Positions 47,056 through 52,959 of a DNA stretch of 64,000 nt are shown piece after piece; the first letter of the stretch is position 1, and every line of letters begins with the position of its first letter. The translations under genes were made by a program, and so were the position numbers. Location of the stretch: assembly GCA_000165345.1 (NCBI GenBank), contig CM000434.1:64001-128000 (forward strand). The letters are read 5' to 3'. The notes under the pieces were generated by a model. The model searched no databases. It had not been told where the DNA came from and saw only the letters and a list, made by a program, of their open reading frames with translations.

Positions 47056-50000
47056 ATGGAGCATAAATGTAATTCTATGAATATACATAGTTCTCAAGAT
47101 TCAATAAAATTATCAACAGGTGGGAGTAAAGAGAAATTGGCAGATTCAATAACAGGATTACAAAATAATTCATCTTCATCTTCATCAACAAACTCATCAT
47201 TTGATTTTTTAAGAAGTAAATCAAATTCTATTATTTTATCAGAATCTCAATCATTATCTTCAAGTATAATACCTATTTTAAAAAAATCAGATTTCTGTGA
47301 TTTCAAAAAGGTATCACTATTACCGTTATTATTTGGTGAAACAACTTGCAATCAACAGTTAACAAATCATAATTTACATGATTTATTTGATGAATTAAAA
47401 CAAATAGAAAGATATGGAAGTAATTTATCATATTTAAGTAATAATTACAATAACAGTGTATGTTACAGGGGAAGTAGTAGTTTTGGATGCGTACAAAATC
47501 ATTCTCTTTCAAATATTGCAGAAGGTTCAAGTATATATTGTAGTCCAGAACCTAATAATTATTATAATAATGATGTAAATACGTTATTAAGTACGACAAG
47601 AAGAAGATTAACTCCGACATCAATAAATTCTTCATTATCTTCAAATAATATTATAGATGATAATAATGATGAATTTTTATGTGAAAAGAAATGTAATGCA
47701 GTAAGAAGACATTTTGAAAAATGTTTAACGTCAAAAATGAATGGTTATGAATTATGTAAATTATTAAGTATTTATTCTTCAGTATTATTTCAAACACCTT
47801 TATCAATAGTATTATTTTACGATGAAGAGACTGAAGAATTAATTGGTTCATTTCCATCAAAAGGAACATGGAACTCATATATACCAAGAAGTTTAACACA
47901 TAAATGGGTTGATTATAAAACTACATGTATGCATAATGAGCATAAATGCCCTCATTTTAAATATAAAACAATAGGGGAATATGGACAATCATCAAAGAAT
48001 TTTATTAACAATAATGGTCATAATCATTTATATTCAAGTTTGACATCAAATTCTTCAATACAAAGTTTTCAATCTAAGGCTAAAGATTTTAAAGAAGCAA
48101 GAAAATCTGAGACAGGATCATCTTTAATTAGGAATAATAGTATTTTTCAATCAAGTAATAAAAAATATCAAAGACTAAGTTTTATTGGTGGATATAAAGA
48201 TAAAATAGTTAATAGAAGAGCAACATTTCCTCCATTATCAATAGCAAATAGAGAAAATGAACCAAATACTTACAAGAATATATTTGATATGAAATCAATG
48301 TTTAATAATGAGATGGATGAAATAGATCAAAGAAATAGTGTAATGGAATATGATTTATTAAGATTTTCGATTAGAAATGAAAAGATTCTTGAAAATGAGA
48401 AATTCGTAAAGAATAGTGACAGTATTGATAATAATAATAATAACTTTAATATTAGCATTAATGGTAATAATATAAAATCTTCGCAAGATAATCAAAATCA
48501 AAAGAAAAGTTTTTTAAATGAAATATTGACACAAAGTCAAAAACAAAATTTCTTTTATTTTAATTATTCTTCAAATATTTGTGATTATATAATAAAATCA
48601 AGTTTTATTAAAGAAGATGATGAAAATAAAAATAATGTTTATAAGGAAAAGAGGTCGGAAATTTTTTTAAGTAATAATAATCAGAATAATGATGTATTAT
48701 TTGGTTCATATTTTTATAATAAATTAAAAGATGCTGAACAATTACCATGTGATATTGCAACAGCTACTCAATGTTCAATTTGTCTTGAAAATATGAAATT
48801 AACATCATTATCTTCGTCATCATCATCATCATCATCATCTTCTTCTTCTTCTTCTTCATTTTCTTCAACTTCATCTTCATCGTCATCATTTAATGATTCA
48901 AGTAATGGATTTGGAAGAGTTAATAATAAAAACAATAATAATAATAATGGAAATGGAGATGGACATGTTTATTATGGTAATAAAACAAATGAATTATCAA
49001 TGTGTAGAAACGGATCAGAAGTAGCATATAAAGAAGAATTTTCTTCAAAAAATGATAATATTGATATTGGTTGTATTAATTTTAATAACAATAATACTAA
49101 TCAACAAATTTCAAGAAAGAATTCAGGAATTGAATTGATACAAAATAAAGGAAAGAAATCTAGTGAAGAGATTTCAGATAAAATGAGTGATTTTCCAGTG
49201 ATCTTAGTTTCACCACCATCTATTAATGATGGAATAATTAATAGATGTTGTATATGTGATAAGAATAAGAATAATAGTAATATTGGCAATGGTAATAATA
49301 ATGAAAAAAATAATGAAGTGGTTTTAAATTCTGTATTTTCTGATACTGAAATAGGAATTACAAATTTTTATCAGAGATATAGTAATTTTAAGATTCCAGT
49401 TATTGCTTGTCCTATTATAGACACAAGAATTCAAAAAGATTATAATAATAATACAAATTCAAAAGTGATTGGAATAGTAATTTGTTTACAACCACAAAAT
49501 CCAAATATATTATTATTAAAAAGTTTAATTACAGAAATTCAAGCAATCGTTTGTTTATTTTTAGATTATAAGAGATTATTATTTAATACATTACAATTAA
49601 ATATGAATCTTGAATTATACAGATGGGTATTTAAACCATTATTATCAAATAGAAGAATAAGACATGAAGACAATTTTGATTATACAATATCAATTGAAGT
49701 TATTTCAAGATTATGTTTATTAATCAATAAAATTACTCCTGCACAATATACATTAGTATATGTAATGGAATCTTGCAATGAATTTGTTTGCATTTATGGA
49801 CCAGGACAATTTATTGGATTACGACTTTGTTCAAAAAATTATTTAATTTCAAATATTCTTAAAAATAAGTGTGTTAATATATGGAATGAGTTTAAGGATT
49901 TTTCAAATATTTTCATAAATTATTCTGATAATAATAATAATAATAATAATAACAAGTTTACAAATTCTCAAATAAATTTTAAGAATACTGCATTTATACC

Positions 50001-52959: not shown

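What the first reader, a model, noticed from the sequence alone, without database searches (positions are those of the whole stretch)
47056..52959. Giant class-I cyclic-nucleotide phosphodiesterase with GAF-like domain(s) in an amoebozoan-type genome
The 1978-codon uninterrupted frame ends in an intact class-I PDE catalytic domain (YHNxxHA, HDxxH, ENHH, HAADISNP and the invariant Q are all present). The central region (roughly codons 770-1010) reads like GAF domains: …IPVIACPIIDTR…VIGIVICLQPQN… and …VCIYGPGQFIGL…AFIPIFNKNDNINILIQLINR… Compare the PDE2/5 GAF blocks …[23 protein letters not shown]… As far as I recall, the class-I PDEs described in Dictyostelium (RegA, Pde3, Pde4) have no GAF domains. 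A GAF-PDE, the animal-type cGMP/cAMP-sensing architecture, would therefore be notable. About 750 N-terminal residues are low-complexity and of unknown function.
Basis: partly seen in the sequence, partly recalled or inferred. Interest (0 to 1): 0.65.

Follow-up and report, generated by a model that had tools for sequence, protein, structure and literature searches.

The report
Cryptosporidium PDE2 ortholog, degenerate GAF remnant
The long ORF is real, but it is the ordinary Cryptosporidium (not amoebozoan) counterpart of the known parasite phosphodiesterase PDE2, with an intact catalytic domain and one badly eroded GAF-like sensor domain of a kind the literature already mentions for this enzyme.

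Summary
The ORF (47056-52959, +; 1967 aa from the ATG) and its class-I PDE catalytic domain are confirmed: Pfam PDEase_I scores 235 bits and every cited motif is present. The organism call is wrong. The best homologs are Cryptosporidium proteins, and 11 consecutive window ORFs are colinear with a C. xiaoi contig. A 1116-aa CaMK-type kinase two genes downstream matches C. parvum cgd6_520, so this is the positional ortholog of cgd6_500 (CpPDE2), which clades with Toxoplasma TgPDE2. A profile of the region finds only Cryptosporidium proteins among 1.84 billion. Both AlphaFold models are unusable (pLDDT 36-38). Profile-profile comparison of residues ~895-1000 with independent GAF domains is nevertheless in register over 95 columns (hhalign P 6e-5, probability 65%; 0/250 shuffles reach the score). 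A 2023 review already says CpPDE2 has GAF remnants too degenerate for domain searches. Verdict: a new member of a known kind, of low interest.

The parts
47056..52959 (+). Complete single-exon ORF of 1967 aa plus a TAG stop. It is the ortholog of Cryptosporidium PDE2 (C. parvum cgd6_500; C. xiaoi RS030_141; C. muris XP_002140112.1).
   Evidence: ORF. (the best hits are Cryptosporidium proteins, 724-972 bits). (end-to-end colinear alignment). (synteny). (the cgd6_520 neighbour, and CpPDE1 = 997 aa).
47590..47961 (+). The most conserved non-catalytic block (residues 179-302), of unknown fold. It contains an invariant C-x-H-x2-H-x-C-x-H cluster (C291, H293, H296, C298, H300).
   Evidence: block identities 0.71 and 0.43 across 5 orthologs. 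There is no Pfam hit. hhalign against GAF gives P 0.047, out of register.
48505..48801 (+). Conserved block (residues 484-582) with invariant Cys565, Cys573 and Cys576; function unknown.
   Evidence: hhalign against GAF gives P 0.59.
49360..49503 (+). It is a conserved beta-hairpin-like block and is not GAF-like beyond chance.
   Evidence: P 0.15-0.41, and only 9 columns aligned elsewhere. (the spliced 'core A' profile finds no GAF in the PDB). (two strands predicted, at low confidence).
49504..49650 (+). Conserved predicted long helical linker (residues 817-865).
   Evidence: helices at 112-130 and 139-157 of the modelled segment, at low confidence. (conservation).
49678..50055 (+). Degenerate GAF-like domain (residues 875-1000). 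The proposed elements are a1 ISIEVISRLCLLINKI, b1 QYTLVYVME, b2 EFVCIYGP, a central helix/strand region, an 18-aa poly-N insert, and the b5-b6 hairpin AFIPIFNKNDNINILIQLINR, which ends in the invariant N998-R999.
   Evidence: hhalign against 5 independent GAFs: probability 64.9%, P 6.1e-5, 95 columns in register. (it is the best and only credible match in an unbiased scan of residues 1-1480). (0/250 column shuffles and 0/250 block shuffles reach the score). Against.
50056..50667 (+). Poorly conserved, largely low-complexity insertion (residues 1001-1204), variable in length between species.
50668..50805 (+). Conserved helix block (residues 1205-1250) with invariant F1210-x3-D1214. It is a candidate displaced GAF a5 helix, the 'F-x3-D' half of an NKFDE-like signature.
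   Evidence: invariant F1210, D1214, Y1218; when this block is joined to the GAF-like core, all 5 PDB hits at E<=10 are GAF domains and the FSxxD helix is in register with PDE6C GAF-A. That splice was guided by the hypothesis, and the unspliced control finds no GAF.
51505..52569 (+). Class-I PDE catalytic region. The conserved region is residues 1484-1838; Pfam PDEase_I covers 1551-1825. All metal-binding and catalytic motifs and Q1798 are present. The closest solved structures by sequence are PDE4 enzymes.
   Evidence: E 1.3e-69. (motifs). (PDE4A/4D/4B at E ~3e-47, then PDE9 and PDE1).
52105..52239 (+). Asn-rich, species-variable insertion inside the catalytic domain (residues 1684-1728). It splits the PDB matches into two stretches.

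Best explanation
The ORF encodes the Cryptosporidium ortholog of apicomplexan PDE2 (C. parvum cgd6_500/CpPDE2, in the clade of Toxoplasma TgPDE2), in a very AT-rich Cryptosporidium genome whose proteins are not in the protein collection searched.

Shown:
- It is one uninterrupted gene with no convincing transmembrane segment.
- The C-terminal class-I PDE catalytic domain keeps every metal-binding and catalytic motif and the purine-recognising glutamine.

Inferred:
- It hydrolyses cyclic nucleotides, most likely cAMP. TgPDE2 is cAMP-specific, and the closest solved catalytic domains are PDE4.
- About 550 residues upstream of the catalytic domain lies one strongly diverged GAF-like domain (residues ~875-1000).
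- The terminal helix of that domain (F-x3-D, residues ~1205-1250) may have been displaced by a ~200-residue low-complexity insertion.
- The domain is conserved from gastric to intestinal Cryptosporidium lineages, so it is probably still used. The likeliest roles are dimerisation and/or allosteric control of the catalytic domain, as in other GAF-PDEs.

Whether it still binds a cyclic nucleotide is unknown. The rest of the N-terminal half consists of lineage-specific conserved blocks, several of them Cys/His-rich, separated by expandable Asn/Ser-rich inserts.
For: Identity and orthology:
- The top hits are C. ryanae, C. xiaoi and C. andersoni proteins of 1655-1918 aa.
- The alignment is colinear along the full length.
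- Eleven consecutive ORFs are colinear with C. xiaoi contig JAWDEY010000011 at 33-78% aa identity.
- The kinase two genes downstream is 1116 aa with a central kinase domain, matching C. parvum cgd6_520 (1103 aa, central kinase domain).
- CpPDE1 is 997 aa and CpPDE3 is 'much shorter' with transmembrane domains. Only CpPDE2 fits.

Catalysis.

GAF-like domain:
- hhalign of the natural ortholog alignment against five independent GAF domains gives P 6.1e-5, probability 65%, with 95 columns in register from b1 to b6.
- With the window sequence as master, P is 1.1e-3. The score of 26.7 compares with shuffles of 11.0±2.0 and 13.0±2.3, and 0 of 250 reach it in either set.
- In a scan of residues 1-1480 this is the single best match.
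- Other conserved segments score only 8.7-17.1.
- N998-R999...F1210-x3-D1214 is invariant in the orthologs.
- An insert-deleted profile hits only GAF domains in the PDB: 3o5y at E 0.015, PDE6C GAF-A, and 4mcw.
- The predicted secondary-structure order is H-E-E-E-H-(E)-H-E-E.

Literature:
- The GAF-like domain of TgPDE2 is itself marginal, at E 3.4e-4 (PMC7720076).
Against: - There is no Pfam GAF, GAF_2 or GAF_3 hit at E<=10 for the whole protein, for sub-fragments, for three orthologs, or for insert-deleted cores.
- A HMMER profile of the region finds only Cryptosporidium representatives among 1.84 billion proteins.
- The unspliced profiles find no GAF in PDB sequences. The all-GAF result therefore depends on a splice guided by the hypothesis.
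- Both AlphaFold2 models are low-confidence (pLDDT 37.6 and 35.5). Foldseek on the first gave no GAF and no significant hit.
- The conserved Gly residues of the GAF 'KGIxG' segment are absent, and the E of NKFDE is replaced.
- I could not retrieve the cgd6_500 or TgPDE2 sequences, so orthology to cgd6_500 rests on synteny, size class and the literature.
- There are no transcript data for the single-gene model.
Confidence: 0.62

Rival explanations
1. The central conserved region is not a GAF. It would be a Cryptosporidium-specific domain or structured spacer, and its resemblance to GAF would be a generic beta-hairpin and amphipathic-helix pattern in an Ile/Asn/Lys-rich protein. The enzyme would then be regulated only by expression and phosphorylation, as proposed for most apicomplexan PDEs.
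For: - Pfam is negative at E<=10, even after the inserts are deleted.
- There are no non-Cryptosporidium hits among 1.84e9 proteins.
- The natural profiles do not hit GAF in the PDB.
- The AF2 models are unconfident and Foldseek gives no GAF.
- The hhalign probability is only 4-65%, depending on the master sequence and query length.
Against: - The hhalign match is in register across the whole domain. It beats all 500 shuffles and all internal control segments.
- The spliced profile retrieves three unrelated GAF families and nothing else.
- N-R...F-x3-D is invariant.
- The sister enzyme TgPDE2 carries a recognised GAF-like domain, and a published alignment reports remnants in CpPDE2.
Confidence: 0.3
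2. This would be an animal-type tandem GAF-A/GAF-B PDE. The first GAF would be split by very long insertions (residues ~215-285 + 540-575 + 770-815), followed by a linker helix and then GAF-B (875-1000).
For: By eye, ELCKLLSIYSSVLFQTPLSIVLFYDEETEELIGSF resembles a GAF a1-b1-b2, and KIPVIACPIIDTR..VIGIVICLQPQN resembles a b5-b6 hairpin. A long conserved helix lies between the two regions.
Against: - The spliced 'core A' profile finds no GAF in the PDB or in Pfam.
- hhalign of residues 179-302, 484-582, 700-866 and 760-830 against GAF gives P 0.047-0.59, with out-of-register or tiny alignments.
- TgPDE2 is described as having a single GAF.
- The catalytic domain is closest to PDE4, PDE9 and PDE1, not to PDE2/5/6/10/11.
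Confidence: 0.05
3. One reading: a novel GAF-containing class-I PDE of a dictyostelid or amoebozoan genome.
For: The only support is base composition (GC ~22%) and the Asn/Ser homopolymer runs typical of Dictyostelium proteins.
Against: - No amoebozoan protein appeared among the matches of either protein search that returned hits; the closest relatives are Cryptosporidium proteins.
- Eleven genes are in the same order and orientation as in C. xiaoi.
- The locus is gene-dense and essentially intron-free.
Confidence: 0.01

Closest known systems
Cryptosporidium parvum CpPDE2 (cgd6_500) and its annotated orthologs (C. xiaoi RS030_141, C. ryanae FG386_003096, C. andersoni, C. muris XP_002140112.1)
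   Same: - Same chromosomal neighbourhood: PP2C, acetyl-CoA transporter, ZIP transporter, PDE, longin-SNARE, CaMK cgd6_520-like kinase.
- Same size class (1655-1918 aa).
- Same colinear conserved blocks.
- Same C-terminal PDEase_I domain, and no transmembrane domain.
- The same Pfam-invisible central region.
   Different: - 38-44% overall identity.
- Longer (1967 aa), because of extra Asn/Ser/Glu-rich inserts in a 22%-GC genome.
- The exact protein is absent from the 15-billion-protein collection.
- It was not compared directly with the cgd6_500 sequence.
Toxoplasma gondii TgPDE2 (cAMP-specific, essential for tachyzoite fitness, single GAF-like domain)
   Same: According to PMC10865986, CpPDE2 clades with TgPDE2 and has similar length and architecture. 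Both are large proteins with one GAF(-like) domain N-terminal to a class-I catalytic domain.
   Different: The TgPDE2 GAF is still detected by domain searches (E 3.4e-4, PMC7720076), whereas here nothing is detected by Pfam. cAMP specificity is only inferred for the Cryptosporidium enzyme.
Metazoan GAF-PDEs (PDE2, 5, 6, 10, 11) and cyanobacterial CyaB1/2 GAFs
   Same: A GAF-type sensor lies upstream of the catalytic or effector domain. The b5-b6 hairpin ends in N-K/R, and an F-x3-D helix follows. The hhalign match to the PDE5 GAF-A and CyaB2 GAF-A/B profile is in register.
   Different: - Only one GAF-like domain is supported, not a tandem pair.
- Identity is 10-14%, and the conserved glycines are lost.
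- The E of NKFDE is lost.
- About 200 residues are inserted before the a5 helix, and about 300 more lie before the catalytic domain.
- The catalytic domain is nearer to PDE4, PDE9 and PDE1.
Human PDE4 catalytic domain (e.g. 2qyk, 1tb7)
   Same: These are the best solved-structure matches to the catalytic region (E ~3e-47). All metal-ligand motifs and the invariant Gln are shared.
   Different: There are no UCR1/UCR2 modules. A 45-residue Asn-rich insertion lies inside the catalytic domain. The N-terminal region is very large and unrelated.

Membership tests
Class-I 3',5'-cyclic nucleotide phosphodiesterase (Pfam PF00233) | Match to PDEase_I above the gathering threshold | tested here: met
   235 bits against a 24.8-bit cutoff, residues 1551-1825, profile positions 1-236 of 238. 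All four orthologs match.
Class-I 3',5'-cyclic nucleotide phosphodiesterase (Pfam PF00233) | Metal-binding and catalytic signature (H-N-x2-H, H-D-x2-H, E-N-H-H, H-A-x-D) and the invariant purine-binding Gln | tested here: met
   YHNIFHA 1551, HDIDH 1592, ENHH 1622, HAADISNP 1743, Q1798. All are invariant in the orthologs.
Class-I 3',5'-cyclic nucleotide phosphodiesterase (Pfam PF00233) | Hydrolysis of cAMP and/or cGMP | not testable with these tools
   This needs an enzyme assay. No Cryptosporidium PDE2 has been characterised (PMC10865986, PMC11436873).
Cryptosporidium PDE2 orthologous group (cgd6_500) | Conserved gene neighbourhood with annotated Cryptosporidium genomes | tested here: met
   11 colinear ORFs against C. 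xiaoi; the downstream 1116-aa kinase matches the architecture of cgd6_520 (1103 aa).
Cryptosporidium PDE2 orthologous group (cgd6_500) | Full-length colinear similarity to the group's members | tested here: met
   724-972 bits and 38-44% identity end to end with C. ryanae, C. xiaoi and C. andersoni; also with C. muris.
Cryptosporidium PDE2 orthologous group (cgd6_500) | Direct reciprocal best match to the C. parvum cgd6_500 protein itself | not tested
   The searches did not return the C. parvum sequence. The assignment rests on synteny, size class and the literature.
GAF domain (Pfam PF01590 / PF13185 / PF13492) | Significant match to a GAF family model | tested here: not met
   no GAF model is listed even at E<=10, whether for the whole protein, fragments, orthologs or insert-deleted cores.
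GAF domain (Pfam PF01590 / PF13185 / PF13492) | Remote (profile-profile) homology to bona fide GAF domains over the whole domain | tested here: inconclusive
   P 6.1e-5, probability 65%, 95 columns in register. P 1e-3, with 0/250 column and 0/250 block shuffles reaching the score; control segments are negative. However, the HMMER profiles of the natural sequence miss GAF.
GAF domain (Pfam PF01590 / PF13185 / PF13492) | GAF fold (six-stranded antiparallel sheet packed against helices) | tested here: inconclusive
   pLDDT 37.6 and 35.5. The order of secondary-structure elements is compatible with GAF, but the models are unusable. Foldseek gives no GAF and nothing significant.
cNMP-binding GAF subfamily (PDE2/5/6/10/11, CyaB1/2) | NKFDE signature, N-K/R-x(n)-F-x3-D-E (as I recall it from the literature) | tested here: inconclusive
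   N998, R999, F1210 and D1214 are invariant. The E is M/L/I, and x(n) is ~210 residues here (about 125 or more in the orthologs), far longer than in the canonical GAF domains.
cNMP-binding GAF subfamily (PDE2/5/6/10/11, CyaB1/2) | Binding of cAMP or cGMP by the isolated domain | not testable with these tools
   This needs a binding assay.
Metazoan tandem-GAF PDEs (PDE2/5/6/10/11) | Two consecutive GAF domains N-terminal to the catalytic domain | tested here: not met
   no second GAF-like region was found.
Metazoan tandem-GAF PDEs (PDE2/5/6/10/11) | Catalytic domain closest to those families | tested here: not met
   the best solved relatives are PDE4, then PDE9 and PDE1.
Dictyostelid/amoebozoan class-I PDEs (RegA, Pde3, Pde4) | Encoded in an amoebozoan genome and closest to those proteins | tested here: not met
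   the homologs and the synteny are those of Cryptosporidium.

The most novel reading that the evidence does not exclude
The eroded GAF-like domain would still be a working allosteric or dimerisation module, even though the N-R of its NKFDE-like signature is separated from the F-x3-D helix by a ~200-residue disordered insertion. That would make it an extreme example of an insertion-tolerant GAF, and it would give Cryptosporidium a cyclic-nucleotide-sensing (feedback-regulated) cAMP phosphodiesterase. In addition, the invariant Cys/His clusters in the N-terminal half (C291/H293/H296/C298/H300; C565/C573/C576; C731/C732/C734) could form a previously undescribed metal-binding regulatory module specific to Cryptosporidium PDE2.
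Probability: 0.2. Interest if true: 0.45.

Novelty: new member of a known kind. Interest (0 to 1): 0.2.

Why it matters
The finding has little importance as a discovery. It is an unannotated species' copy of a known, though biochemically uncharacterised, apicomplexan enzyme, and the GAF remnant has already been noted in the literature.

It has modest practical value. Cryptosporidium PDEs are being pursued as drug targets (PMC11436873). This analysis places the putative GAF remnant at defined residues (~875-1000, plus a candidate a5 helix at ~1205-1250). It shows the region is conserved from gastric (C. muris, C. andersoni) to intestinal lineages, and it gives a concrete construct to test for cNMP binding or dimerisation.

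It is also a caution for genome scanning. AT-rich, Asn-run-rich coding sequence is not diagnostic of Dictyostelium.

Tried and rejected
- The search for homologous proteins with the central-region alignment returned nothing, not even the sequences it was built from. With the catalytic domain it returned only distant PDEs and missed the Cryptosporidium orthologs. C. parvum cgd6_500 and TgPDE2 could therefore not be retrieved for direct comparison.
- The exhaustive HMMER search of 1.84e9 representatives with the central profile found only two Cryptosporidium cluster representatives.
- AlphaFold2 on the central region failed twice, because only 4 orthologs could be supplied. The window sequence as master (296 aa) gave pLDDT 37.6, and C. 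andersoni as master (136 aa) gave 35.5.
- Foldseek against the PDB with the poor model gave noise, such as QueF and proteasome subunits. The afdb50 library was unavailable.
- Pfam on insert-deleted cores was negative.
- The idea of a split GAF-A in residues 215-815 was tested and dropped.
- Exact look-up of four window proteins to name the species found none of them in the collection.
- Rfam found nothing in the window.
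Full report
**1. The observation**

The + strand carries an uninterrupted frame from 47023 (TTG) or 47056 (first ATG) to the TAG at 52957-52959. From the ATG the product is 1967 aa.

Pfam finds one significant domain, PDEase_I, at residues 1551-1825 (E 1.3e-69, 235 bits against a cutoff of 24.8). All are invariant in the orthologs. 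The ORF and the intact class-I catalytic centre are therefore confirmed.

A simple hydropathy scan finds no convincing transmembrane segment. About 27% of the protein is low-complexity by an entropy criterion.

**2. The organism is Cryptosporidium, not an amoebozoan**

- The only strong full-length homologs are proteins of 1655-1918 aa from C. ryanae, C. xiaoi and C. andersoni (724-972 bits). A fourth is C. muris RN66 XP_002140112.1.
- They align colinearly from end to end at 38-44% identity.
- The C. xiaoi gene lies in a neighbourhood with the same order and orientation as the window: PP2C(+), a BSD-like gene(-), acetyl-CoA transporter(-), unknown(+), ZIP transporter(-), PDE(+), longin/synaptobrevin SNARE(-), protein kinase(+), long ORF(-).
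- tblastn of 11 consecutive window ORFs against that locus gives colinear matches at 33-78% aa identity.
- The window is gene-dense with long uninterrupted ORFs and has GC ~22%.
- None of four window proteins is in the 15-billion-protein collection. The source appears to be a Cryptosporidium species whose proteins that collection does not hold. I did not identify the species.

**3. Which Cryptosporidium PDE it is**

Cryptosporidium has three PDEs: cgd3_2320 (CpPDE1), cgd6_500 (CpPDE2) and cgd6_4020 (CpPDE3) (PMC10865986).

- CpPDE1 is 997 aa (PMC11436873).
[quoted passage not shown] - Two genes downstream of the window's PDE is a 1116-aa kinase whose kinase domain lies at residues 392-645. The C. 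parvum kinome paper lists cgd6_520 as a CaMK of 1103 aa with a central kinase domain (PMC3227725).

Size class, lack of transmembrane segments and position two genes upstream of a cgd6_520-like kinase identify the ORF as the positional ortholog of cgd6_500 (CpPDE2). I could not retrieve the cgd6_500 sequence itself, so this last step is an inference.

**4. Is there a GAF?**

*Negative evidence*

- Pfam lists no GAF-type model at E<=10. This holds for the whole protein, for five sub-fragments, for the three orthologs, and for 'cores' from which the non-conserved inserts were removed.
- A HMMER profile of the central region (residues ~706-1001, 4 species) searched against 1.84 billion representative proteins finds only two Cryptosporidium representatives.
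- The same profile, and a shorter one covering residues 860-1001, find no GAF among PDB sequences.
- Two AlphaFold2 runs, limited to a four-sequence alignment, gave pLDDT 37.6 and 35.5. Foldseek on the first returned only noise.

*Positive evidence*

- hhalign of the natural, unspliced ortholog alignment of residues 860-1001 against it gives 64.9% probability, P 6.1e-5 and score 33.5. Ninety-five columns are aligned in register, from strand b1 (QYTLVYVME against RCSIFFVDD) to the b5-b6 hairpin (AFIPIFNKNDNINILIQLINR against ILSLPV...AIGVIQVLNKR).
- With the window sequence as master, the score is 26.7 and P is 1.1e-3. Column shuffles give 11.0±2.0 (maximum 18.6) and 8-column block shuffles give 13.0±2.3 (maximum 21.4). 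None of the 250 shuffles in either set reaches the observed score. The reversed alignment scores 13.8.
- In an unbiased scan of residues 1-1480 against the GAF profile, residues 895-1000 are the best and only credible match.
- Five other conserved segments of the same protein score 8.7-17.1 (P 0.047-0.68).
- N998-R999 at the end of the hairpin is invariant in the orthologs. So is an F1210-x3-D1214 helix about 210 residues further on. Together they resemble the N-K/R...F-x3-D-E signature of cNMP-binding GAFs, with the E lost.
- I removed the 18-residue poly-N insert and joined the 1205-1250 block to the core. All five PDB hits of that profile at E<=10 were then GAF domains: 3o5y sensor GAF (E 0.015), three PDE6C GAF-A entries (E 0.17-0.22) and the 4mcw HD-GYP GAF (E 0.32). 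That splice was guided by the hypothesis, and the unspliced control is negative, so I give this result limited weight.

My own idea of a split GAF-A in residues 215-815 failed every test.

*Conclusion on the GAF*

One strongly diverged GAF-like domain at residues ~875-1000 is plausible. I put it at roughly 0.6-0.65. It is not demonstrated, and there is no evidence for a tandem pair.

**5. Comparison with what is known**

This matches the published picture. TgPDE2, the only known cAMP-specific apicomplexan PDE, carries a single GAF-like domain that is itself only marginally detected (E 3.4e-4; PMC7720076). [quoted passage not shown]

The catalytic domain's closest solved relatives are PDE4 enzymes (E ~3e-47), then PDE9 and PDE1. 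That is compatible with the suggested cAMP preference but does not prove it.

GAF-PDE proteins outside the named animal PDE families also turned up in my searches. One is a 2131-aa protein of unnamed source with GAF_2 + GAF + PDEase_I. The other is a 639-aa metagenomic protein with the same set of domains.

**6. How it most likely works**

Shown: a single large soluble protein with a complete class-I catalytic centre.

Inferred:
- It hydrolyses cAMP, by clade with TgPDE2 and its PDE4-like catalytic domain.
- Its non-catalytic 1480 residues are a string of Cryptosporidium-conserved blocks separated by expandable Asn/Ser/Glu-rich inserts.
- One of those blocks is a relic GAF. It may still mediate dimerisation or allosteric coupling, because it is conserved between the deeply split gastric and intestinal lineages.
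- Ligand binding by the relic is uncertain.

**7. Verdict**

The framing that gave the finding its interest, a GAF-PDE in an amoebozoan, is wrong. What remains is a new species' copy of a known enzyme, with a feature already noted in the literature. It is a new member of a known kind, and I score interest at about 0.2.

Noticed in passing
window 21982-24481: A run of exactly 2500 N, which is an assembly gap. The ORFs that the ORF listing reports across it (21914-24511 on + and 21967-24504 on -) are artefacts of the N run.
   Followed up: partly
window 36068-63950 vs L001 (C. xiaoi JAWDEY010000011: 75805-100772): Eleven consecutive ORFs are colinear with C. xiaoi at 33-78% aa identity. None of four window proteins exists in the 15-billion-protein collection. 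The window therefore seems to come from a very AT-rich (GC ~22%) Cryptosporidium species whose proteins that collection does not hold. The species was not identified.
   Followed up: partly
window 59307-63950 (- strand): Two ORFs in the same frame (61644-63950 and 59307-61595) together correspond to one 1502-aa gene in C. xiaoi (L001 20142-24650). They are separated by a single in-frame stop, and an ambiguous base lies two codons before it (translation ...DSSXK*FNL...). This suggests a sequencing or assembly error, a nonsense mutation, or a tiny intron.
   Followed up: partly
window 37705-39758 (- strand): ORFs 37705-38940 and 39183-39758 are in different frames, and both match the single 678-aa C. 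xiaoi gene at L001 956-2992. The likely causes are an intron or a frameshift in the ~240-nt gap.
   Followed up: no
window 55648-58998 (+): A 1116-aa protein kinase with a central kinase domain (residues 392-645), 62% identical to the C. xiaoi neighbour. It matches the described architecture of the C. parvum CaMK cgd6_520 (1103 aa), a PfPK2-like kinase whose autoinhibitory helix and CaM-binding site could not be readily identified, according to the kinome paper.
   Followed up: partly
window 47590-49250 (PDE residues 179-735): The N-terminal half of the PDE has invariant Cys/His clusters across Cryptosporidium orthologs: C291-x-H293-x2-H296-x-C298-x-H300; C565, C573 and C576; C731-C732-x-C734. 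There is no Pfam match. They could be metal-binding sites, and they are unexplained.
   Followed up: no
window 52105-52239 (PDE residues 1684-1728): A 45-residue Asn-rich insertion sits inside the catalytic domain. It varies in length and sequence between species, and C. andersoni and C. muris have a longer, different insert. It splits the matches to solved PDE structures into two stretches.
   Followed up: no
tool behaviour: The word-indexed protein search returned no hit for a profile built from proteins that are in its own database. It also missed the Cryptosporidium orthologs when queried with the catalytic domain. Absence of hits from that tool was therefore not treated as evidence.
   Followed up: yes
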